Shown here in pieces: positions 1 to 8,955 of a stretch of 8,955 bases of DNA (within the stretch, counting starts at the first letter, position 1; each line of letters opens with the position of its first letter). A program made the position numbers and the translations under genes. Below the pieces are notes generated by a model. That model did no database searches and was not told where the DNA came from. It was given only the letters and a program-made list of their open reading frames with translations. The stretch comes from a virus. Lineage: Duplodnaviria > Heunggongvirae > Uroviricota > Caudoviricetes. The stretch covers positions 1 through 8,955 of the IMG/VR virus record IMGVR_UViG_3300029214_000257; one strand, 5' to 3'.

Positions 1-258
1 ATGCAAACCGTTATTTTTGGTCGTCCGGGTTGCCATTACTGTGTGCGTGCAAAAGATCTGGCTGAGAAATTGAGCAATGAACGCGATGATTTTCAGTATC
101 AGTATGTAGATATTCGTGCGGAAGGGATCACTAAAGAAGATCTACAACAAAAGGCAGGTAAACCCGTAGAAACCGTGCCGCAGATTTTTGTCGATCAGCA
201 ACATATCGGCGGCTATACCGATTTTGCTGCATGGGTGAAAGAAAATCTGGACGCCTGA
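1..258 (+). CDS. grxA: glutaredoxin 1
   Basis: Complete 85-aa ORF starting at ATG 1, recognisable as E. coli-type Grx1 along its length (recalled sequence). The active-site CxxC reads C11-H12-Y13-C14 (tgc cat tac tgt, nt 31-42) rather than the canonical CPYC. Stop at 256-258. Confidence 0.9.
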   Translation: MQTVIFGRPGCHYCVRAKDLAEKLSNERDDFQYQYVDIRAEGITKEDLQQKAGKPVETVPQIFVDQQHIGGYTDFAAWVKENLDA

Positions 259-268
259 TCGTCTGACA

Positions 269-287
269 AGCCCTCGCGTTGAGGGCT
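269..287. terminator. Stem-loop AGCCCTC-gcgtt-GAGGGCT between convergent grxA and ybjM; likely bidirectional terminator
   Basis: 7-bp GC-rich inverted repeat directly after the grxA stop and abutting the ybjM stop (288-290), followed on the plus strand by ttactgatttttt. Confidence 0.45.
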
Positions 288-665
288 TTACTGATTTTTT
301 CTGTGCTGTGGTTTAAACAAACTACTGATAAATAAGAAACACAGTGCCCCCAGCGCACACCAGAACACCGCGCTTAGTAACCATGCCAGCTCTTGCCAGA
401 ATGAGCGCGTCGGTGAAAAAAACAGCCGCATAATGAGCATCGAACAGGGTGCCGCCAGCATTGCGCCAAACAGAGGTTTCAGGACTTCTCTACGCTGTGA
501 AAAGAAGCTGGCGACTGCTCCAGGAAGAATGAAAAATAGCAAGCCGATTTCAGGATGCCCGGCAGCCCGAAAAGCGCCTTTCATGTGCGTCGCCAGAAAA
601 AGGCACACCACAATGAAGAGGACAAAACAGCAGATTGCCCCCGCCCAACGTTGTTTATGTTTCAC
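288..665 (-). CDS. ybjM: small inner-membrane protein YbjM
   Basis: 125-aa ORF with hydrophobic, multi-helix composition; position between grxA and ybjL matches the E. coli gene order as I recall it. Confidence 0.8.
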   Translation of the reverse strand: MKHKQRWAGAICCFVLFIVVCLFLATHMKGAFRAAGHPEIGLLFFILPGAVASFFSQRREVLKPLFGAMLAAPCSMLIMRLFFSPTRSFWQELAWLLSAVFWCALGALCFLFISSLFKPQHRKNQ

Positions 666-934
666 TCGTTCCTCCTGACACTGCGTCTATCGAACACATT
701 TTTCGCCAGTGTGGCGTTCAGTAAGATAAAGCCGCTTCGCATTCCATGCTAATATAGGCCAACGCAATTCATATAGCCGTTGATACCTAATGTGATTACA
801 CTAGTAAAATATATTGTTACTTTACTATCGTTTAGGTGCGCTGAATGAATCTGCGCCCTGAATTCTGGTAAAAAACATTATCGTAAATTACCATTTCTTT
901 CAACAGCTTACTAGTAAACAAGAAGTTAGCCTCC

Positions 935-2620
935 GTGAATATAAACGTCGCCGAATTGTTAAATGGGAATTACATTCTGTTATTATTTGTGGTCCTCGCG
1001 CTTGGGCTATGTCTCGGAAAGTTACGACTTGGTTCGATCCAACTGGGTAATTCCATTGGCGTTTTAGTCGTATCGCTGTTATTAGGCCAACAACATTTCA
1101 GCATTAACACCGATGCGCTTAATCTTGGCTTTATGCTGTTTATTTTCTGCGTCGGGGTCGAAGCCGGACCGAACTTTTTTTCCATTTTTTTTCGCGATGG
1201 GAAAAATTACCTAATGTTAGCACTGGTGATGGTTGGCAGTGCGCTGGTGATCGCCTTAGGGTTAGGTAAGCTGTTTGGCTGGGATATTGGCCTGACGGCC
1301 GGTATGTTAGCAGGCTCTATGACGTCGACACCGGTTCTGGTCGGTGCTGGCGATACACTGCGTCATTCCGGCATGGAAAGCAGGCAGCTCTCACTGGCAC
1401 TGGATAATCTGAGCCTCGGGTATGCCTTAACCTATTTAATCGGTCTGGTGAGTTTGATTGTTGGTGCGCGTTACTTGCCGAAATTGCAGCATCAGGACTT
1501 ACAGACCAGCGCCCAGCAAATCGCCCGCGAACGTGGCCTGGACACTGATGCCAACCGTAAGGTTTATTTACCGGTGATCCGCGCCTATCGCGTCGGCCCG
1601 GAACTGGTGGCCTGGACCGACGGCAAAAATCTGCGTGAACTGGGTATTTATCGACAAACCGGCTGCTACATTGAACGTATTCGACGTAACGGGATTCTGG
1701 CAAATCCAGACGGTGATGCCGTGCTACAAATGGGCGATGAAATAGCGTTGGTAGGCTATCCCGACGCCCATGCCCGACTCGATCCCAGCTTCCGTAACGG
1801 TAAAGAAGTTTTCGATCGTGACCTTCTCGACATGCGTATCGTCACTGAAGAAGTGGTCGTTAAAAACCATAACGCTGTAGGTAAACGTCTCGCACAACTG
1901 AAGTTGACCGATCACGGTTGCTTCCTTAACCGCGTCATTCGTAGCCAGATTGAGATGCCGATAGATGACAACGTCGTGCTTAACAAAGGTGACGTTTTAC
2001 AAGTCAGCGGTGATGCCCGTCGCGTAAAAACCATCGCCGATCGCATCGGCTTTATCTCGATTCACAGCCAGGTCACTGACCTGCTGGCATTTTGCGCCTT
2101 CTTTGTTATTGGGCTGATGATCGGGATGATCACCTTCCAGTTCAGCACATTCAGTTTCGGCATGGGGAACGCTGCCGGGTTGTTATTCGCCGGAATTATG
2201 CTGGGCTTTATGCGTGCTAACCACCCGACCTTCGGTTACATTCCGCAAGGTGCATTAAGCATGGTGAAAGAGTTCGGCTTGATGGTGTTTATGGCAGGCG
2301 TTGGTCTGAGCGCCGGTAGCGGTATTAATAACGGCCTGGGCGCGATTGGCGGTCAGATGTTGATTGCCGGATTAATTGTCAGTCTTGTGCCCGTGGTTAT
2401 CTGTTTCTTGTTCGGTGCTTATGTATTGCGAATGAACCGCGCACTGTTGTTCGGCGCAATGATGGGCGCACGCACCTGCGCGCCGGCAATGGAGATCATC
2501 AGTGATACAGCTCGCAGTAACATCCCTGCGCTGGGCTACGCGGGCACCTACGCAATCGCCAACGTCCTGCTGACGCTGGCAGGGACAATCATCGTCATGG
2601 TATGGCCAGGATTAGGATAA
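935..2620 (+). CDS. ybjL: putative AAE-family transporter YbjL (two transporter halves flanking two RCK/TrkA-C-like domains)
   Basis: 561-aa ORF with GTG start at 935. Hydrophobic N- and C-terminal halves with a soluble central region (about residues 190-370). Length and synteny fit E. coli ybjL. Confidence 0.9.
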
Positions 2621-2732
2621 AACTGAAGTTGCCCTGAAAATGAAATTTTTTTGCACAACCGCAGAACTTTTCCGCAGGGCATCAGTCTTAATTAGTGCCA
2701 CTGCTTTTCTTTGATGTCCCCATTTTGTGGAG

Positions 2733-2775
2733 CCCATCAACCCCGCCATTTCGGTTCAAGGTTGATGGGTTTTTT
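2733..2775 (+). terminator. rho-independent terminator downstream of ybjL
   Basis: CCCATCAACC (2733-2742) pairs with GGTTGATGGG (2760-2769), then TTTTTT (2770-2775). About 113 nt after the ybjL stop. Confidence 0.5.
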
Positions 2776-2833
2776 GTTGCCTGAAATTTATGCTATTTAA
2801 AATCATGATGTTAGAAGCACTGTTTTTTAACGA

Positions 2834-2855
2834 TGGCGACAAAATGGCGGCAGCG
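2834..2855. repeat. 22-bp direct repeat copy 1 (candidate attR core): TGGCGACAAAATGGCGGCAGCG
   Basis: Matches 8916-8937 (TGGCGACAAAGTGGCGGCAGCG) at 21 of 22 positions in the same orientation. It ends exactly at the ogr-like stop codon (2856-2858, minus strand). Confidence 0.55.
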
Positions 2856-3074
2856 TCAAAGAGAGAGCTCCACCTGTCCTGATTTCATTGGATGCGGCTG
2901 AACCGGATTTGACTCTTTTGGCGTTGCAATCGAACGAACAAAAGTTTCATGGGTAACAAAAGTATGGCTGCAGTTAATGTTCTGGCACTGGTTGTAACGT
3001 TCTTTGGTCAATGAAGATACCTGAAAACTGCTGCGAGTATGGGCGGCACTTCCACACAGTGGGCAAATCATCAT
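2856..3074 (-). CDS. ogr: Ogr/Delta-family zinc-finger late-gene transcription activator
   Basis: 72-aa product from ATG at 3074 (MMICPLCGSAAH...CQNINCSHTF...). Cys4 spacing and length match P2 Ogr (72 aa, recalled). Lies directly downstream of the D fragment as in P2. The ORF track's 83-aa version starts 11 codons upstream. Confidence 0.75.
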   Translation of the reverse strand: MMICPLCGSAAHTRSSFQVSSLTKERYNQCQNINCSHTFVTHETFVRSIATPKESNPVQPHPMKSGQVELSL

Positions 3075-3164
3075 TTTTCGAGTTCTCCCCATTTTTGCTA
3101 AATTCACAATAATGATACCGCATTATTCCATTTTGCAAACTTAAAAGTTCTCCATTGCGAAGAA

Positions 3165-3605
3165 TCATTCCATTTCGAAATCATCAATCCTCACTTCAAG
3201 CTCCAGACTGGTCGTAAAACCATTATCCGGGCTGACGGTATGAGTCAGAGTCGTAATGGTCCATTCCGCATCATCTATCGGTTGTTTAAAGCCACTAACT
3301 TTCACTGGCATTTCCGTGTAAAGATCTGCCCGCCCTTCCGCCAGTTGTAGCGAGAATGACGCAACGCCGCGTTGCAGGCGTTCCCACTGCATTTTCGCTG
3401 CCCGTTCAGCGTTGCTCCGGTTGGCATAAGTGCGATTAAGTACCAGCACGTTTTCATCCGTACCCACCAGGTAATCGCCCTGCTTCGCTTCCGGCTCTTT
3501 CTTCTGCTTCTTAGTTCTGCGCTTACGCTTCACCGTGGTGCTTTCTTTCTTCGCAGGTTCGCGGGTATGCAACCAGCTGGCAATTACGCCCGTGTAAACG
3601 CCCAA
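3165..3605 (-). pseudogene. C-terminal fragment of P2 gpD-like tail protein (D')
   Basis: Translation (GVYTGVIASWLHTRE...LQRGVASFSLQLAEGRADLY...LELEV...) resembles the C-terminal third of P2 gpD from memory. No ATG start: the frame opens with TTG at 3605 and is open up to 3626. Sits immediately upstream of ogr as in P2. Confidence 0.55.
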
Positions 3606-4062
3606 TCTGTGCCCACTGTTCGGTGGTCAACTTAGGACGGCGTCCACCTACTCTGCCTTTGGCACGAGCTGCAGCCAGCCCTGCCCTGGTACGTTCAACT
3701 ATCAGTTCGCGTTCCATTTCAGCCAGGGCACCCATGACATGAAAAAAGAAACGGCCCATTGGGGTACTGGTATCAATACTGTCAGTCAGGCTTCTGAAAT
3801 TCACACCACGCTGGCGCAACTCTTCTATCAGCGTAACAAGATGCCGCATACTGCGCCCCAACCTGTCCAGCTTCCAGACAACCAGCGTGTCTCCTGCCGA
3901 TAGTGTCCTGAGTAGTTTTTTCAGCCCCGGTCTGTCGGACTTAGTGCCACTGATTTTGTCCTCAAAAATCTGCTCACATCCCGCGCAATTCAGTGCATTA
4001 CGTTGCAAATCGGTGTTCTGGTCATTTGTTGACACGCGTACATAGCCAATAAGCATGATCAT
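3523..4062 (-). pseudogene. truncated Pin/Gin/Hin-family serine DNA invertase (catalytic domain only; C-terminal HTH lost)
   Basis: N-terminal about 156 aa (LIGYVRVSTNDQ...DTLVVWKLDRLGRS...GRFFFHVMGALAEMERE...) closely resembles e14 Pin from memory. Homology stops after ...TEQWAQIGRL near nt 3595 and the frame runs into unrelated sequence before the stop at 3523. Confidence 0.75.
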
Positions 4063-4112
4063 CCCCCTGAATAAAAACCGGAGATGATGCCAGTTAGCTG
4101 TTACCTCTGCAT

Positions 4113-4138
4113 TTTCTTAAACGTTGGTTTGGGAGAAG
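4113..4138. other. candidate gix/hix-like invertase crossover site (TTTTCTTAAACG TT GGTTTGGGAGAA)
   Basis: 26-bp imperfect inverted repeat matching recalled gix/hix sites at about 17 of 26 positions. Located about 50 bp upstream of the invertase start, the usual site-invertase arrangement. Confidence 0.3.
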
Positions 4139-4350
4139 CCAGATATCAGCGTTGAATCTTCAGTCAGATCGGTAAGCAGCCAGATTTCTGGTGCGGTTAA
4201 TAAATGAGGTTGAGCTGGGTTCAGCTTGTTCCGCAGAATCTGCACATTCATGCCAGCACGTTCTGCCAGTTGCACCAGGTTGTGGCGCAATGCGAATGCA
4301 CGACAGGCTTCATCAAAATGTGGATGTTTGGAAACTTGGTAATCAAACAT
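4117..4350 (-). pseudogene. truncated CII-like HTH regulator (186 CII-type N-terminal domain only)
   Basis: 77 aa from ATG 4350 ([45 protein letters not shown]...). Clear HTH, resembles the N-terminus of phage 186 CII from memory. Ends at about 77 aa versus about 169 expected. SD AGAGG 9 nt upstream. Lies downstream of the apl-like gene as in 186. Confidence 0.5.
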
Positions 4351-4382
4351 GGTCAATGCCTCTGATGTATTTCAGAATCGAA

Positions 4383-4604
4383 CTAATTAAGGTTTAGATT
4401 GCATTCTGAAAGCGCATCAACGGTCATGGCTGCTATGTTGATCATCACTTTTTCGCGTTTTTTATCTTTCCGCAGACGGTGACGGATAAGACGTCCATCA
4501 GCCAACATGTCATTGATAGTATCGATGGATAGCCCTGTCAGCTCGCTATAACGTTCAATAGTCACATGAGGCGTGGTAAGAGTGATTGAAATGTTATGTT
4601 TCAT
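4383..4604 (-). CDS. Apl/Cox-like excisionase / lytic-operon first gene (small HTH protein)
   Basis: 73-aa ORF with an AlpA/excisionase-like HTH ([23 protein letters not shown]). Divergent from cI and first gene of the apl-cII-type operon. Confidence 0.5.
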
Positions 4605-4729
4605 GATGCAACATTCCTCGTTTAATGTTGATTAATCAGGACGAATACGGATCGTTTGTATTTTGTGAACATCATAAACATACGATCGCATAATGAAATC
4701 GTCAAGACAAAAGTTCACTTGGAGTGACC
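4605..4729. promoter_or_regulatory. lysis/lysogeny switch region between divergent apl-like and cI-like genes
   Basis: 125-bp AT-rich intergenic region. Minus-strand candidate promoter: -35 TTGACG (4705-4700), 17-bp spacer, -10 TATGTT (4682-4677). GTGAAC (4666-4671) and GTTCAC (4713-4718) form an inverted pair. Palindrome CGATCG at 4683-4688. Confidence 0.4.
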
Positions 4730-5299
4730 ATGAATTTGGAGAAAGGCGGACGAGGCGCTATAGAGCGCATGGTAGAAGCATATGGCTTCAAGACTCGACA
4801 GGCGTTGTGCGATCACTTAGGAATCTCTAAAAGTACTCTCGCCACACGCTATATGCGTGACTCATTCCCTGCTGAATGGGTAATCCAGTGCGCACTTGAA
4901 ACGGGCGCCTCGCTTAACTGGCTCACGACCGGACATGGTTCAAAGCAAACTTCAGGTAATACAAATACTATGGAAGTCGTTAAATATGTATTATCTGATG
5001 GAACCTTGCAGGAAGATGGTTTTTATATTTTCGATAAAGAATTTCTACCATCTACGCTCAAAAATCCGTTTGTAATCACCGATAACAATTCCGTTTTTAT
5101 TTGCGATAAAGAGTTTAACGATATTCGTGACGGCAAATGGGTAATAAGTATTGATGCCGAAGTAACAATCCGCGATATCACTCGTTTACCTGGTGGAAGA
5201 ATCTTAGTTGAAGGTGGAAATAGGGCTTTCGAATGTAAAAAAGAAGAAATCGAAATTATTGGAAAAATTATAACCATAACAGTTAAGTACTTTGAGTAA
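4730..5299 (+). CDS. cI: 186-type CI immunity repressor (N-terminal HTH domain plus C-terminal oligomerisation domain)
   Basis: 189 aa from ATG 4730, with GGAG SD 5 nt upstream (the ORF track starts at an in-frame GTG at 4724). The N-terminal domain (GGRGAIERMVEAYGFKTRQALCDHLGISKSTLATRYMRDSFPAEWVIQCALETGASLNWL) looks like the 186 CI DNA-binding domain. Length matches 186 CI (about 192 aa). Confidence 0.8.
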   Translation: MNLEKGGRGAIERMVEAYGFKTRQALCDHLGISKSTLATRYMRDSFPAEWVIQCALETGASLNWLTTGHGSKQTSGNTNTMEVVKYVLSDGTLQEDGFYIFDKEFLPSTLKNPFVITDNNSVFICDKEFNDIRDGKWVISIDAEVTIRDITRLPGGRILVEGGNRAFECKKEEIEIIGKIITITVKYFE

Positions 5300-5349
5300 T
5301 ATAGGAATGTTTTTATGCTTGGTAAAGCATTTGTTGTGGTGTAAAAAAT

Positions 5350-6273
5350 ATGTCAACTCAAAAATTAAAATTTAGCCATATCAAAAACGATCTGAAAGCA
5401 ATAGTCATGCAGAATCGTGGAGGGCAAAAAGTTATTGAGCGTATACTCCTAGCCTATGGCTTCAAGTCACGACAGGCATTATGTAATCATCTAGGTATTT
5501 CCCAAAGTACTATGGCCAACAGATATGCACGTAATACCTTTCCTGCAGATTGGGTTGTTATATGTTCCATAGAAACAGGAGCATCAATTGAATGGTTAGT
5601 TCTTGGTTCAGATACTGCTCCTTCATCAGAGCAATATTCTGAAAAACATGCCGTTAATGGCCTTTGCAATGAAGTATACATTCCCACTATAAAGTTCGAT
5701 AATGAAAAACTCATGAATTTTAACCGAGGAGGTAAGGCAACAATAGAACGAATTGTCGAGGCTTACGGTTACAAAACGCGCCAAGCATTAGCTGATCACC
5801 TAGGTATTTCAAAAAGCACATTAGCCACACGATACATGCGTGACATTTTTCCTGCAGACTGGGTTTTGCAGTGTGCAATAGAAACGGGCCATTCTATTGA
5901 ATGGATTTCATTTGGTACAGGAGAAATGAAAAACGCAAAAAATAAAGATACTTTAACATTAGTGAAAAAAGTATTAATCAATGGCAAGTTAATAAATGAT
6001 GGCTCATATTTATTTGACCCATGTTTTCTACCTTCCAATTTAAAAAATGCATTCGTAGTATCTACCGAAGGCTCTGAATTAATATGTGAAATGGGTTTTA
6101 AAGATGTACATGATGGTAAGTGGCTAGTAAATATTGATGGAGAGAATTCATTTAGAATGATAACTCGACTACCTAAAGGACGAGTTTATATTTCATCCAA
6201 AAATCACTCTTTTGAATGTTCGCTTACAGACATTGAGTTTATTGCAAAAGTTATTATAAGTTGTTTACATTAA
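5350..6273 (+). CDS. CI-repressor paralogue with tandemly duplicated N-terminal HTH domain plus CI-like C-terminal domain
   Basis: 307-aa ORF. Residues about 24-86 and 127-189 are two copies of the CI N-terminal domain (copy 2 is about 75% identical to the adjacent cI N-terminal domain). Residues about 200-307 parallel the cI C-terminal domain (VVKYVLSDGTL...DGKW in cI versus LVKKVLINGKL...DGKW here). Alternative start at M20 (5407). Confidence 0.75.
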   Translation: MSTQKLKFSHIKNDLKAIVMQNRGGQKVIERILLAYGFKSRQALCNHLGISQSTMANRYARNTFPADWVVICSIETGASIEWLVLGSDTAPSSEQYSEKHAVNGLCNEVYIPTIKFDNEKLMNFNRGGKATIERIVEAYGYKTRQALADHLGISKSTLATRYMRDIFPADWVLQCAIETGHSIEWISFGTGEMKNAKNKDTLTLVKKVLINGKLINDGSYLFDPCFLPSNLKNAFVVSTEGSELICEMGFKDVHDGKWLVNIDGENSFRMITRLPKGRVYISSKNHSFECSLTDIEFIAKVIISCLH

Positions 6274-6298
6274 GTAAATTTTTCATGGAGACTTCATA

Positions 6299-7816
6299 GT
6301 GAAATGTGGTGATTGTAATTGGAACTGGGATGAAGAAACTACCTTTATATTAGACGACGAAGAGGAAATTCTCTCCAAAGACAAACTTAATCGGAGACAC
6401 TATGCAGAATATCTATATTTTTATCTTAAGGAAAAGGGGCAAAAGAACAATACGGTAATCAACCTTAATGCAGAATGGGGAGCTGGTAAAAGTTTTTTCA
6501 TAAAGAGATTTTATAACTCAATAAAAGATGCACACCCATGCGTTTACATTGATGCCTGGAAGCAAGACTTTTCTGATGATGCATTTTTAACCCTTTTTTC
6601 TTCTTTGTCACAACAATTGCAAACATATGCAGGAAAACTTGATGCTCGATTGATACAAAGCGGCCATGCTATCGGACGCTTTACAAAAGGTGTTCTACCT
6701 GAAATCATATCTGGCCTAATCAAGACTTATGCAGGAGTAGATAACGTAGGTGATATAGCCAAAGAAGCCTCATTAATAATGCTGAAGGAACACCAGGAAA
6801 AACTGAAGAGCATTAAGGTATTAAAAAAAGAACTTACGTTATGGTCTAGGTTGGCATATGAAAATAGTTTTTCATGTCCTATATTTATCTTTATAGATGA
6901 ATTAGACAGATGCAGGCCAGATTATGCAATTTCTCTTTTAGAGATTGTTAAACATATATTCGATATTAAAAATTTTGTCTTTATTATTGCTACTGACACA
7001 GATCAATTACAACATTCAATCAAGAATGTTTACGGTAATGATTTTTCCGCAAATGACTATTTAGGCCGTTTTTTTCATAGAAGATTTACTTTAAAACAAC
7101 CTGAACTTAAAGATTTAATTAATGGTGTTGTTGGTGATTATATTGGTACCGAGTTTGAAAATATCACATCAAAAACATACCCACTAACCGCAACATTAGA
7201 AGACTTTTCAATAAATATTTCCAACGTATTTGAAGCATTTGGGTTAAATCTAAGAGACTCAATCCGAAATACTGAAAGGTTAATAGACATTCTTAAATCT
7301 GATTTAGTCAAAAAGAAAGTAGATTATATTTTTATAATTTCGCTAATGATTATATATGATAAGGATCGTCAAATTATAGATGGACTAATTGGTCGAAGAA
7401 ATGCAGCACAACGTTTCACTGATTCGATAAAGCAAAGCTCCAATTTAAAAGGTGTTTCTCAAGCCATCCTTGAATTAAATCTTGATACAAATCAGCAAAG
7501 AATAGGTGTCAATTATATCTATACAACGGCGAACAGTAGATTATTCATCTCACAGATCGAACCCAAAATAAGTTTAACATTAATAAATTACTTAGATGTT
7601 GCATTGTATTTTATCAATAATATAAACATACTTAAATCAAGTATAAAAAACAATGGGCAAAATTCACTAATGATTAAATCTAAACAAGGCCCTATTGATG
7701 GTGATACAGCTATAAAGTATTTGCAAGGAGCCCTTATAGAGAATGGACTGAATACATCTTTTTATGCCTTACATAATTACATTGAATTAATTGAACTGGC
7801 CACATCATTTGATTAA
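6299..7816 (+). CDS. KAP-family P-loop NTPase (PifA-like)
   Basis: 505-aa ORF with GTG start at 6299 and GGAG 9 nt upstream. Walker A EWGAGKS (G61-S65, nt 6479-6493). KAP-type Walker B IFIDELDRC (D200-C205, nt 6896-6913). Very AT-rich coding sequence. Starts 25 bp after the 307-aa ORF, so probably co-transcribed. Confidence 0.85.
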   Translation: MKCGDCNWNWDEETTFILDDEEEILSKDKLNRRHYAEYLYFYLKEKGQKNNTVINLNAEWGAGKSFFIKRFYNSIKDAHPCVYIDAWKQDFSDDAFLTLFSSLSQQLQTYAGKLDARLIQSGHAIGRFTKGVLPEIISGLIKTYAGVDNVGDIAKEASLIMLKEHQEKLKSIKVLKKELTLWSRLAYENSFSCPIFIFIDELDRCRPDYAISLLEIVKHIFDIKNFVFIIATDTDQLQHSIKNVYGNDFSANDYLGRFFHRRFTLKQPELKDLINGVVGDYIGTEFENITSKTYPLTATLEDFSINISNVFEAFGLNLRDSIRNTERLIDILKSDLVKKKVDYIFIISLMIIYDKDRQIIDGLIGRRNAAQRFTDSIKQSSNLKGVSQAILELNLDTNQQRIGVNYIYTTANSRLFISQIEPKISLTLINYLDVALYFINNINILKSSIKNNGQNSLMIKSKQGPIDGDTAIKYLQGALIENGLNTSFYALHNYIELIELATSFD

Positions 7817-7877
7817 AAGCATTGTTTGAATAAACTAAACCATACATTGACCACTGGTCAAACATACAGTTAAATTT

Positions 7878-7902
7878 AGCCCTCTGATATGAGGGCTTTA
7901 TT
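7878..7902 (+). terminator. stem-loop AGCCCTC-tgatat-GAGGGCT followed by TTTATT; terminator for the cargo operon and/or structure occluding the int ribosome-binding site
   Basis: 7-bp GC stem, about 60 nt after the KAP stop. The 3' arm GAGGG doubles as the int Shine-Dalgarno sequence, 7 nt upstream of ATG 7903. Confidence 0.4.
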
Positions 7903-8955
7903 ATGGCAGTACGAAAACTCACCACAGGAAAATGGCTTTGCGAATGTTACCCCGCCGGACGTAGTGGGCGTCGGGTGCGTAAACAATTCGCCACCAAAGG
8001 CGAAGCTCTGGCTTTTGAGCGCCACACGATGGAAGAAACCGAAGCAAAGCCCTGGCTGGGTGAATCAGTGGATCGTCGAACACTGAAAGACGTGGTTGAG
8101 CTATGGTTCAAACTACATGGTAAATCTCTGACAGCTGGGCAGCATGTCTATGACAAATTGCTGTTGATGGTTGACGCTCTGGGCAATCCTCTTGCAACCG
8201 ATCTCACCTCTAAAATGTTTGCCCACTATCGAGATAAACGCCTGACAGGCGAGATCTACTTCAGCGAGAAATGGAAGAAAGGAGCAAGCCCGGTCACCAT
8301 TAACCTGGAGCAAAGCTATCTAAGTAGTGTTTTTAGCGAACTATCCCGTCTGGGCGAATGGTCGTATCCGAACCCACTGGAGAACATGCGAAAATTCACC
8401 ATCGCAGAAAAAGAGATGGCATGGCTTACCCATGAGCAGATTGTTGAATTGCTGGCTGATTGCAAACGTCAGGACCCAATTCTGGCACTGGTAGTTAAGA
8501 TATGCTTAAGCACAGGCGCACGCTGGCGTGAAGCCGTAAATCTTACCCGCTCACAGGTGACCAAATACCGAATTACCTTTGTCAGAACGAAGGGGAAGAA
8601 AAACAGAAGCATCCCTATAAGTAAAGAGCTTTACGAAGAGATCATGGCGCTTGATGGGTTCAATTTCTTTACAGACTGCTATTTTCAATTTTTATCCGTG
8701 ATGGAAAAAACGTCTATCGTGCTCCCTCGCGGTCAACTCACACACGTTCTGCGCCATACGTTTGCGGCGCACTTCATGATGTCGGGTGGAAACATTCTGG
8801 CCTTACAAAAAATTCTCGGACACCACGATATAAAAATGACTATGCGTTACGCACATCTGGCACCGGATCATCTGGAAACGGCGCTCCGTTTCAATCCTCT
8901 GGCAACGCTGCCAAGTGGCGACAAAGTGGCGGCAGCGGTTGGCATTACCCCGTAA
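7903..8955 (+). CDS. int: P2-type tyrosine integrase
   Basis: 350 aa, alignable by eye with P2 Int (recalled): ICLSTGARWREA (Arg box), TFVRTKGKKNRSIPIS, HVLRHTFAAHFMMSGGNILALQKILGH, MRYAHL (catalytic Tyr). The 3' end overlaps the second 22-bp repeat. Confidence 0.9.
   Translation: MAVRKLTTGKWLCECYPAGRSGRRVRKQFATKGEALAFERHTMEETEAKPWLGESVDRRTLKDVVELWFKLHGKSLTAGQHVYDKLLLMVDALGNPLATDLTSKMFAHYRDKRLTGEIYFSEKWKKGASPVTINLEQSYLSSVFSELSRLGEWSYPNPLENMRKFTIAEKEMAWLTHEQIVELLADCKRQDPILALVVKICLSTGARWREAVNLTRSQVTKYRITFVRTKGKKNRSIPISKELYEEIMALDGFNFFTDCYFQFLSVMEKTSIVLPRGQLTHVLRHTFAAHFMMSGGNILALQKILGHHDIKMTMRYAHLAPDHLETALRFNPLATLPSGDKVAAAVGITP
8916..8937. repeat. 22-bp direct repeat copy 2 (candidate attL core): TGGCGACAAAGTGGCGGCAGCG
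   Basis: 21 of 22 identical to 2834-2855. Lies inside the last 14 codons of int, so the final 6 int codons (8938-8955) fall outside the repeat-bounded element. Confidence 0.55.

What the first reader, a model, noticed from the sequence alone, without database searches (positions are those of the whole stretch)
2834..8937. Extremely reduced P2/186-like prophage retaining only switch, int, ogr and cargo
Everything between cII and the last third of D (replication, capsid, tail, lysis) is absent. What remains are regulators (cI, apl, ogr), the integrase and the cargo. That pattern suggests selection for host-beneficial functions such as immunity and exclusion, and the intact int plus att cores may still allow excision or mobilisation by a helper.
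Basis: partly seen in the sequence, partly recalled or inferred. Interest (0 to 1): 0.5.

Follow-up and report, generated by a model that had tools for sequence, protein, structure and literature searches.

The report
Deleted-down P2/186-like prophage in rybB
This is an ordinary defective prophage: a 35-kb P2/186-type phage sitting in the rybB small-RNA gene of E. coli lost 82% of its DNA in two internal deletions, keeping its repressor switch, integrase, late activator and a two-gene cargo.

Summary

**What it is**
- The element is a 6.3-kb remnant of a Peduoviridae (P2 family) prophage with a 186-type switch.
- Its phage DNA differs by 2 SNPs from the 35-kb prophage at the same site in E. 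coli ECO8855.
- Two illegitimate deletions, 6,655 and 22,082 bp, removed tail, head, lysis, cos, tum-region and replication genes.

- A 554-bp piece of the tail-fibre invertase region survives between D' and cII'.
- cII is truncated to 69 of 169 residues.
- The true core, ATGGGTTTTTTGTT (2766-2779), is the 3' end of the rybB sRNA gene. attR lies 76 bp beyond the window.

**Function**
- Excision is plausible, because int, apl, attL and attR (seen in an identical contig) are intact.
- Packaging by a helper is not plausible, because no cos is left.
- Selection is not shown. About 20% of complete E. coli genomes carry an element here, but only about 19 hold compact remnants, mostly with different junctions.
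- This exact remnant recurs in 33-47 blocks of public assemblies, so it is real and apparently clonal.

**Cargo**
- A second, tandem-HTH CI repressor plus a KAP NTPase that matches an untested defence candidate.

Verdict: ordinary, low interest.

The parts
2700..2778 (+). rybB small-RNA gene, the host integration target. It is kept intact in attL.
   Evidence: Rfam RF00110 RybB, 105.3 bits (gathering score 40), model positions 1-79 of 79. Integration of Felsduovirus prophages within rybB is published (PMC10121019).
2766..2779 (.). attL core ATGGGTTTTTTGTT, with an imperfect extension to about 2792. This is the true left boundary of the prophage.
   Evidence: Three-way alignment of the empty K-12 site, the window's left junction and the ECO8855 right junction (alignment A1).
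2834..2855 (+). P-arm pair of putative Int arm-type sites (TGGCGACA and TGGCGGCA, 11 bp apart).
   Evidence: Direct repeat D4. TGGCGRCA occurs 5 times in the window against 0.57 expected. It resembles the reverse complement of the 186 Int arm-type consensus YAYCGCCAYTY annotated in NC_001317.
2856..3074 (-). ogr/B-type zinc-finger late-gene activator, intact (72 aa).
   Evidence: Pfam Ogr_Delta 6.8e-22. 100% identical to ECO8855, 54-55% to 186 B and P2 Ogr.
3165..3596 (-). D' : C-terminal 143 of 366 codons of the tail gene D.
   Evidence: Pfam Phage_GPD, profile positions 201-302 of 305. Equals L003 6651-7082.
3594..3596 (.). Junction 1, with microhomology GTA. Joins D nt 432 (counted from its stop) to invertase codon 155. 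Deletes L003 7083-13737 (6,655 bp): the 5' part of D, U, T, E/E', FII, FI and the 3' end of the invertase gene.
   Evidence: blastn block ends and three-way sequence comparison.
3597..4062 (-). N-terminal 155 of 188 codons of the tail-fibre serine DNA invertase. It lacks the C-terminal DNA-binding domain. The ORF runs out of frame into D' as far as 3523.
   Evidence: Pfam Resolvase 2.9e-53 and PHROG 125 DNA invertase 1.6e-89. 99.4% identical to the ECO8855 invertase beside the tail-fibre genes.
4113..4138 (.). Invertase crossover-like site TTTTCTTAAACG TT GGTTTGGGAGAA (Hin/Gin/Cin type), a leftover of the invertible tail-fibre segment.
   Evidence: Read directly from the sequence. The comparison with hix/gix/cix sites is from memory. 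The 186 record annotates a 'Mu-like inversion crossover site' in its tail-fibre gene.
4143..4144 (.). Junction 2, with 1-nt microhomology. Joins DNA 88 bp upstream of the invertase start to cII codon 69. Deletes L003 14286-36367 (22,082 bp): tail fibres, baseplate, lysis, head, terminase, portal, dprA cargo, cos, dinI/tum region, A, dam, fil and the 3' part of cII.
4144..4350 (-). cII' : N-terminal 69 of 169 codons of the 186-type CII. The called ORF is 77 aa, with 8 foreign residues, and ends at 4117.
   Evidence: Pfam Phage_CP76, profile positions 1-66 of 146. 81% identical to 186 CII. This exact 77-aa product is on record in 47 blocks of public assemblies.
4383..4604 (-). apl/cox-like excisionase and repressor, intact (73 aa).
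   Evidence: PHROG 575 'Cox-like excisionase and repressor' 8.9e-30. 100% identical to ECO8855.
4605..4729 (.). Switch region between apl and cI, with promoter-like sites on both strands.
   Evidence: Consensus scan: '-' TTGACG-17-TATGTT at 4705-4677 and '+' TGAACA-17-CATAAT at 4666-4694. Consensus matches only. No SNP against ECO8855.
4730..5299 (+). cI immunity repressor (189 aa), 186 type.
   Evidence: Pfam Phage_CI_repr 3e-33 and Phage_CI_C 7e-27. 31% identical to 186 CI.
5350..6273 (+). cI2: a CI paralogue with two N-terminal HTH domains plus the CI C-terminal domain (307 aa). Cargo.
   Evidence: Pfam Phage_CI_repr x2 and Phage_CI_C. 56% identical to the resident CI. 61% identical over 98% of its length to the only CI annotated in the first 6.5 kb, the int-cI-cII region, of Klebsiella phage 4LV2017.
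6299..7816 (+). KAP-family P-loop NTPase (505 aa). Cargo. G+C is about 30-36%.
   Evidence: Pfam KAP_NTPase 1.7e-45. PADLOC PDC-S20 6.2e-78, PifA 1e-16, QatA 7e-14. Walker A GAGKS and Walker B FIDELD can be read in the translation. G+C profile.
7903..8955 (+). P2-family tyrosine integrase, intact (350 aa). The window ends at its stop codon.
   Evidence: Pfam Int_N and Phage_integrase. 100% identical to the integrases of phages vB_EcoM-813R9 and KP12, 54% to 186 Int.
8916..8937 (+). P'-arm pair of putative Int arm-type sites inside the 3' end of int.
   Evidence: The P2 record likewise annotates its P'-arm Int site inside the 3' end of int.

Best explanation
The region is a defective prophage. 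A roughly 35-kb Peduoviridae phage integrated by its tyrosine integrase into the 3' end of the rybB sRNA gene. The phage has P2-type virion and late genes and a 186-type CI/Apl/CII switch.

Shown:
- Two RecA-independent, microhomology-level deletions (GTA and a single T) removed 28.7 kb.
- The removed DNA holds all structural, lysis, packaging (cos), replication and dinI/tum-region functions.
- About 6.3 kb is left between intact attL and attR.

Inferred:
- What remains works as a locked-in lysogenic module. The lysogenic promoter drives cI, cI2, the KAP NTPase and int as one rightward operon.
- CI keeps the leftward apl-cII' transcript off, and probably ogr as well, and gives immunity to homoimmune phages.
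- cI2 is a second immunity-type repressor that may extend immunity to another class of phage.
- The KAP NTPase may act as a single-gene exclusion or abortive-infection factor.
- Int plus Apl could still excise the element if CI were inactivated. There is no Tum-type antirepressor left to do so, and the excised circle could neither replicate nor be packaged.

The remnant is inherited vertically in one E. coli lineage. It could donate its immunity and cargo module to incoming related phages by homologous recombination.
For: - Collinearity with a full-length prophage at the same site: three blocks at 99.6-99.9% identity, and 2 SNPs in 6.17 kb of phage DNA.
- Junction anatomy.
- Gene identities.
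- att core from comparison with the empty site. rybB. attR intact in L027, which matches the window with 1 mismatch in 8,955 bases.
- cos: the 186 and P2 cos sequences were read from their records. The best ECO8855 match is at L003 29698-29716, inside deletion 2, and the window has none.
- The 186 record documents the cI-int lysogenic operon, CI repression of pB, Tum as antirepressor and Int arm-type sites.
- The same two junctions occur in 33-47 blocks of independent public assemblies, so they are real and heritable.
- Other compact remnants at this site have at least 14 different sizes, and every one mapped keeps ogr, apl, cI and int.
- EC06 and L6-21 share one junction but differ in the immunity and cargo module, which fits module exchange.
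Against: - No expression data. The promoter calls are consensus matches at chance frequency.
- CI control of ogr rests on the 186 analogy and a few shared 7-8-mers.
- Defence activity of the KAP NTPase and any function of cI2 are untested. PDC-S20 is only a candidate family.
- attR and the downstream flank are not in the window itself.
- ECO8855 is a proxy for the true parent, not the parent.
Confidence: 0.9

Rival explanations
1. The remnant is a domesticated element. Selection favoured the deletions and now maintains immunity, exclusion cargo, ogr and int for the host's benefit.
For: - All 15 compact remnants mapped at this site keep ogr, apl, cI and the cargo slot. Int is complete in all but one, where it carries an internal stop.
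- This exact remnant is found in tens of assemblies.
- The cargo matches a defence-candidate family.
- Defective P2-like elements with conserved defence genes are reported (PMC13586616).
Against: - Only 2 SNPs separate the remnant from a full-length relative, so purifying selection cannot be measured.
- Compact remnants make up about 0.35% of complete genomes and about 1.7% of occupied sites. Most are single-strain.
- Retention of both ends is the geometric result of internal deletions. cI must outlive the lytic genes (inference).
- The sample was found with a query that contains these genes, so it is biased.
- One remnant (E3) has an internal stop in int.
Confidence: 0.2
2. It is a helper-dependent mobile mini-element, satellite-like. 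It excises and is packaged or transferred with the help of a co-resident P2/186-like phage.
For: Intact int, apl, attL and attR. It keeps an Ogr/Delta-type activator, as P4 does.
Against: - No cos-like sequence in the window.
- No psu, sid or alpha-type genes.
- It derives from a complete phage by two deletions, with 2 SNPs of difference.
- Wherever flanks were visible it sat at the rybB locus. Contigs reaching the ogr side run into ybjL, and contigs reaching the int side run into rcdA.
Confidence: 0.03
3. The junctions are assembly artefacts, and the strain really carries a full-length prophage.
For: Neither junction occurs in any of 5,426 complete RefSeq E. coli genomes.
Against: - Both junction-specific ORF products are on record in 33 and 47 blocks of independently assembled data (Logan, NCBI). 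Contigs match the window with 0-1 mismatches.
- The microhomologies of 1-3 nt are far below any assembler k-mer.
Confidence: 0.02

Closest known systems
Felsduovirus/Elveevirus-type P2-family prophages integrated in rybB (E. coli defence hotspot #29 of Hochhauser et al. 2023, PMC10121019). Examples: the ECO8855 prophage and phages vB_EcoM-813R9, KP12 and 4LV2017.
   Same: Same att site (rybB 3' end). Integrase 99.4-100% identical. Same gene order: ogr-D...cII-apl-cI-[cargo]-int. About 20% of complete E. coli genomes are occupied at this site.
   Different: The window's copy lacks 82% of the genome, including all virion, lysis, cos and replication genes.
Coliphage 186 (NC_001317, Eganvirus)
   Same: Switch architecture and families: CI with Phage_CI_repr and CI_C domains, CII (81% identical over the retained part), Apl/Cox-type excisionase, Int (54%), B/Ogr next to attP, and Int arm-type sites of related sequence.
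   Different: - 186 integrates in a tRNA-Ile gene and has no cargo between cI and int.
- CI is only 31% identical, so immunity specificity differs.
- The promoter geometry predicted here is not shown to be the face-to-face 186 arrangement.
Defective P2-like elements with conserved defence genes ('UGRs' with P2 markers; PMC13586616). Also the K-12 cryptic P2 remnant ogrK-yegZ, which is cited from memory and was not checked here.
   Same: A non-mobile leftover of a P2-like phage in which accessory genes stay intact while core genes are lost. The K-12 remnant also keeps ogr plus a C-terminal D fragment (memory).
   Different: Here both att sites, int, the repressor switch and an exact full-length parent type are still identifiable. 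The deletion history can therefore be read to the base.
KAP-NTPase defence proteins: PADLOC candidate PDC-S20, PifA of the F plasmid, QatA, and the 'Reve' single-gene KAP system of P4 hotspots (PMC13586616).
   Same: KAP P-loop domain with Walker A and B motifs. Strong HMM match to PDC-S20 (6e-78) and weaker matches to PifA and QatA. Located in a phage accessory-gene hotspot. A homologue (51% identical) sits between cI and int in a Brenneria prophage.
   Different: Activity is untested. No Qat partner genes are present. The relationship to Reve was not examined.

Membership tests
P2/186-like (Peduoviridae) prophage | P2-family tyrosine integrase next to an att site, with arm-type sites | tested here: met
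   Pfam Int_N and Phage_integrase. 54% identical to 186 Int, 35% to P2 Int, and 100% to the integrases of isolated Peduoviridae phages. Core found by empty-site alignment. TGGCGRCA pairs flank the core.
P2/186-like (Peduoviridae) prophage | 186-type lysis-lysogeny switch (CI, Apl/Cox, CII) | tested here: met
   Phage_CI_repr and CI_C, Phage_CP76, PHROG 575. cII is present only as 69 of 169 codons.
P2/186-like (Peduoviridae) prophage | Ogr/B late activator and gene D at the att-proximal end of the late region | tested here: met
   Ogr_Delta 6.8e-22. Phage_GPD C-terminal part. Same order as in the 186 and P2 records.
P2/186-like (Peduoviridae) prophage | Complete virion, lysis, cos and replication modules, i.e. 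a functional phage | tested here: not met
   All lie in the two deleted intervals, L003 7083-13737 and 14286-36367. The window has no cos match. It is a remnant, not a phage.
Helper-dependent satellite (P4-like) | cos site plus helper-exploitation and replication genes (psu, sid, delta, alpha) | tested here: not met
   No cos. Pfam and PHROG scans show only an Ogr/Delta-type gene and none of the others.
Domesticated (selected) cryptic prophage | Conservation across diverged lineages with a signature of purifying selection | tested here: inconclusive
   2 SNPs against the full-length relative. The exact remnant recurs in 33-47 blocks with 0-1 mismatches, which looks clonal. Compact remnants are rare overall.
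KAP-NTPase anti-phage candidates (PADLOC PDC-S20) | Match to the family HMM over most of its length, with an intact P-loop | tested here: met
   PDLC04959 6.2e-78, residues 20-389 against profile positions 11-382 of 464. GAGKS and FIDELD motifs in the translation.
KAP-NTPase anti-phage candidates (PADLOC PDC-S20) | Demonstrated protection against phage | not testable with these tools
   Needs plaque assays. PDC families are candidates only.
RybB sRNA | Match to the Rfam covariance model above the gathering score, full length | tested here: met
   RF00110, 105.3 bits against a gathering score of 40, model positions 1-79 of 79, window 2700-2778.

The most novel reading that the evidence does not exclude
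Two things are not excluded.

(a) The deletions that shrink prophages at this site may not be random.
- Of 15 junctions resolved, in the window and in 14 other remnants, 8 join exactly at a shared TA.
- TA is the rarest dinucleotide in the prophage (4.25%). Given a shared 2-nt microhomology, the expected share for TA is about 2.8%.
- Some endpoints are re-used with different partners, for example cII nt 178 and D nt 757.
- This could mark an unrecognised TA-directed breakage or joining activity acting on these prophages.

(b) The tandem-HTH CI paralogue and the KAP NTPase might form a new repressor-coupled immunity and exclusion module carried in the lysogenic operon.
Probability: 0.1. Interest if true: 0.5.

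Novelty: new member of a known kind. Interest (0 to 1): 0.2.

Why it matters
Taken alone, it matters little. It is one more decayed prophage of a common family, at a published integration hotspot, and its cargo sits in a known accessory-gene slot.

Its value is as a clean worked example. A near-identical full-length relative exists, so both deletions can be read to the base. The case also shows which functions a remnant can still have (immunity, possible exclusion, excision) and which it cannot (induction, replication, packaging).

Three smaller points have some use:
- The correction of the att site to the 3' end of rybB.
- The recognition of the 22-nt repeats as Int arm-type sites.
- The catalogue of independent remnants at the locus, with its unexplained TA bias.

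Tried and rejected
1. **Invertase-catalysed deletion.** Junction 2 lies 5-6 bp outside the crossover-like site and 18 bp from its central TT. Junction 1 is inside the invertase gene. Neither is at a crossover dinucleotide. Rejected.
2. **RecBCD/Chi-limited resection from a cos cut.** The prophage has no Chi site on either strand. Rejected as an explanation for endpoint clustering.
3. **Joining by the A protein (HUH nickase) at ori-like sites.** The P2 and 186 nick sites (GCGCCTCG|GAGTCC type) bear no relation to the junctions. Rejected.
4. **cos search.** The cos sequences of 186 and P2 were read from their records. The best match in ECO8855 is GGCGTGGCGGGGATACGAG (15 of 19 positions), inside deletion 2. 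The window has none.
5. **Look-up of the 179-aa invertase'-D' ORF.** It found nothing because gene callers use the second ATG. The 177-aa form is on record.
6. **Search for single-deletion intermediates.** None was seen among the contigs carrying either junction product.
7. **cI2 as an obligate partner of the KAP NTPase.** Homologues in Brenneria, Ewingella and other species representatives lack a cI2 neighbour. Rejected.
8. **tRNA integration target.** The window has no tRNA gene.
9. **Scan of species-representative genomes.** It returned only 4 KAP loci and was of limited use.

Full report
**What is in the window**

Bases 1-2620 are E. coli grxA, ybjM and ybjL (annotated relatives). From about 2766 to the last base the sequence is phage-derived. 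The genes are:
- ogr (2856-3074, -)
- a C-terminal fragment of tail gene D (3165-3596, -)
- the N-terminal 155 codons of a serine DNA invertase (3597-4062, -)
- the first 69 codons of a 186-type cII (4144-4350, -)
- an apl/cox-like gene (4383-4604, -)
- cI (4730-5299, +)
- a 307-aa CI paralogue with two HTH domains (5350-6273, +)
- a 505-aa KAP P-loop NTPase (6299-7816, +)
- a P2-family integrase whose stop codon is the last base of the window (7903-8955, +)

These assignments rest on Pfam and PHROG matches. The cargo genes have 29-37% G+C, against 44-54% for the phage backbone. There is no tRNA gene.

**Full-length relative and the deletions**

A megablast against 5,426 complete E. coli genomes found a 35-kb prophage at the same site in strain ECO8855. 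The window aligns to it in three collinear blocks:
- window 1-3596 = L003 3487-7082
- window 3591-4144 = L003 13732-14285
- window 4136-8955 = L003 36359-41178

Identity is 99.6-99.9%. Base-by-base comparison finds only two differences in the 6.17 kb of phage DNA. One is R67K in the invertase fragment. The other is synonymous, in cI2. Apart from that one invertase substitution, every retained protein is 100% identical to its ECO8855 counterpart.

So the remnant arose from an ECO8855-type phage by two deletions.
- Deletion 1 (6,655 bp) runs from inside D to inside the invertase gene. The joint has a 3-nt microhomology, GTA.
- Deletion 2 (22,082 bp) runs from 88 bp upstream of the invertase start to codon 69 of cII. 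The joint has a 1-nt microhomology.

Together they remove the tail, baseplate, tail-fibre, lysis, head, terminase and portal genes. They also remove a dprA cargo gene, the cos region, the dinI/tum-like genes, replication gene A, dam and fil. About 6.3 kb of about 35.0 kb is left.

**The att sites**

The finding's coordinates (2834 and 8937) are the ends of a 22-nt direct repeat, TGGCGACAAA[A/G]TGGCGGCAGCG. I aligned an unoccupied K-12 site with the window's left junction and the ECO8855 right junction. The sequence shared by all three is ATGGGTTTTTTGTT, at window 2766-2779, followed by an imperfect extension. That is the att core.

The right copy lies 76 bp past the int stop codon, outside the window. 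It is intact in L027, a public contig that matches all 8,955 bases of the window with one mismatch and continues into rcdA.

The core is the 3' end of the rybB sRNA gene, which remains complete in attL (Rfam RF00110, 105 bits, 2700-2778). Integration of Felsduovirus-type prophages within rybB has been reported as E. coli defence hotspot #29 (PMC10121019).

Each copy of the 22-nt repeat consists of two TGGCGRCA octamers 11 bp apart. These account for four of the five occurrences in the window, where 0.57 are expected. One pair lies in each arm of attP. They resemble the reverse complement of the 186 Int arm-type consensus YAYCGCCAYTY. As in P2, the P'-arm sites sit inside the 3' end of int. I therefore read them as Int arm-type binding sites, not crossover cores. 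This is an inference, since no binding data exist.

**What kind of phage**

The switch is of the 186 type.
- The cII fragment is 81% identical to 186 CII, Int 54%, Ogr/B 54%, D' 48% and CI 31%.
- There is no match to P2 C or Cox.
- The integrase is 99.4-100% identical to those of the isolated Peduoviridae phages vB_EcoM-813R9, KP12 and 4LV2017 (Elveevirus).

**What the remnant can and cannot do**

*Can, by inference.* In 186, cI and int form one lysogenic operon (annotations). Here cI, cI2, the KAP gene and int lie head to tail on one strand with short gaps. The cargo is therefore probably expressed with the repressor. CI should give homoimmunity. Int, Apl, attL and attR are intact, so excision is possible in principle.

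*Cannot.*
- The only cos-like sequence of the ECO8855 prophage is GGCGTGGCGGGGATACGAG at L003 29698-29716, which matches 15 of the 19 bases of the 186 cos. It lies inside deletion 2.
- The window has no match to either cos with up to six mismatches. A helper could not package it through cos.
- The region that in 186 holds the SOS-controlled antirepressor Tum is deleted, and so is replication gene A. The element should be non-inducible by SOS and non-replicative.
- In 186 the ogr homologue B is repressed by CI. In the window, ogr's upstream region shares a few 7-8-mers with the switch region. That is weak support for the same control here.

**Is there evidence for selection?**

The attL junction (host, core and phage arm) is present in 1,110 of 5,426 complete genomes. 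A 25-kb empty-site query is split exactly at the att position in 1,099 genomes, which means an insert larger than about 13 kb. Only about 19 genomes hold compact remnants of 3.8-9.3 kb, with at least 14 different sizes.

I mapped 15 of these remnants on ECO8855.
- All keep ogr, apl, cI and the cargo slot. Int is complete in all but E3, where it carries an internal stop.
- Left endpoints lie in D, U or T.
- Right endpoints lie mostly in cII, or in A or dam.

So compact remnants are recurrent but rare, and mostly strain-specific. That is the picture of sporadic decay, not of a widely maintained domesticated element.

Keeping both ends is what internal deletions produce. A deletion that removed cI before the lytic genes would be lethal (inference). 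The sample is also biased, because it was found with a query containing these genes.

For the window's own remnant, two SNPs against a full-length relative leave no room to measure purifying selection. It is not a one-off, however. The two junction-specific ORF products are on record in 47 and 33 blocks of independently assembled public data. They appear together wherever the contig is long enough. The flanks were the rybB-locus genes wherever visible: ybjL on the ogr side and rcdA on the int side. This rules out an assembly artefact and indicates clonal inheritance. Neither junction occurs in the complete RefSeq genomes.

**Cargo**

*KAP NTPase.*
- It matches the PADLOC candidate family PDC-S20 at 6e-78, and PifA and QatA more weakly.
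- Walker A (GAGKS) and Walker B (FIDELD) motifs are present.
- A 51%-identical homologue sits between cI and int in a 186-like prophage of Brenneria corticis, without a cI2 neighbour. More distant homologues occur in unrelated contexts. The NTPase is therefore more likely a single-gene unit.

*cI2.* Tandem-HTH CI proteins are not unusual in this group. A 61%-identical one is the only CI annotated in the int-cI-cII region of Klebsiella phage 4LV2017, whose integrase is 99.4% identical to the window's. cI2 is thus best read as a captured second immunity repressor (inference).

*Position.* The slot between cI and int is variable in the other remnants. It holds a small YdcA-like gene, a DUF4041 gene, or an AAA ATPase plus a partner. 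It corresponds to minor hotspots already described in P2-related phages (PMC9122126 and PMC13586616). Defective P2-like elements with conserved defence genes have also been described (PMC13586616).

**An unexplained regularity**

Among 15 resolved junctions (the window's two plus those of the other remnants), 8 join at a shared TA. TA is the rarest dinucleotide in the prophage (4.25%). Given a shared 2-nt microhomology, TA would be expected in about 2.8% of cases.

Endpoints are also re-used.
- cII nt 178 is joined to D757, U308, T932 and D116.
- D757 is joined to cII178 and to A1204.

Part of this is nesting. EC06 equals the L9 remnant plus a second deletion between two TACCG motifs. EC06 and L6-21 share one junction but differ in the immunity and cargo module, which suggests module exchange by recombination.

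I tested and rejected three causes: the invertase site, Chi sites and the A-protein nick site. The sample is small and partly non-independent, so I record the pattern as unexplained rather than as a finding.

**Verdict**

The phage origin and the excision capacity hold. Selection is not shown, and helper packaging is contradicted by the loss of cos. This is a new instance of a well-known kind of object, at a published hotspot, so its interest is low.

Noticed in passing
window 2700-2778 (+): The rybB sRNA gene (Rfam, 105 bits). The phage att core is its terminator and 3' end. The 'ybjL-downstream' site is therefore an sRNA-gene integration site, analogous to tRNA or tmRNA targets. rybB stays intact in the lysogen.
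   Followed up: yes
Junctions in window 3594-3596 and 4143-4144, and in loci L005, L012, L013, L016, L017, L020, L021 (mapped on L003): 8 of 15 deletion junctions in remnants at this locus join at a shared TA dinucleotide, where about 3% is expected. Endpoints such as cII nt 178 and D nt 757 are re-used with different partners. Nested deletions explain part of this. The rest is unexplained.
   Followed up: partly
window 5350-6273 (+): A second CI-type repressor with two tandem HTH domains lies just downstream of the resident cI. A 61%-identical tandem-HTH protein is the only CI annotated in the int-cI-cII region of Klebsiella phage 4LV2017. This looks like a captured extra immunity gene.
   Followed up: partly
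window 4113-4138: A Hin/Gin/Cin-type crossover-like site, TTTTCTTAAACG TT GGTTTGGGAGAA, survives upstream of the truncated invertase. It is a relic of an invertible tail-fibre segment. Junction 2 lies only 5-6 bp from it.
   Followed up: partly
L005 (EC06) against L019 (L6-21) and L016 (L9): EC06 and L6-21 share the same D757-cII178 junction but carry different cI alleles and cargo (a YdcA-like gene against DUF4041). EC06 is the L9 remnant plus one more deletion. Remnants at this site appear to keep shrinking and to swap immunity and cargo modules.
   Followed up: partly
L008 7809-9037; L013, L014, L015 and L017 after int; L020 1745-2275: Extra genes sit between int and attR (a Panacea-domain pair and small hypothetical genes) and between attL and ogr in some remnants. 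These are further accessory-gene slots at the prophage ends.
   Followed up: no
L006 (FDAARGOS_1248) 3052-4487: int is followed directly by ogr and D of a second element. This points to tandem P2-like prophages in that strain.
   Followed up: no
hits H156-H160, H176 and H177: Some E. coli, including O157:H7 and O145, carry a roughly 4.2-kb sulfatase and PTS-transporter insertion elsewhere in the 25-kb region around rybB. It is unrelated to the prophage.
   Followed up: no
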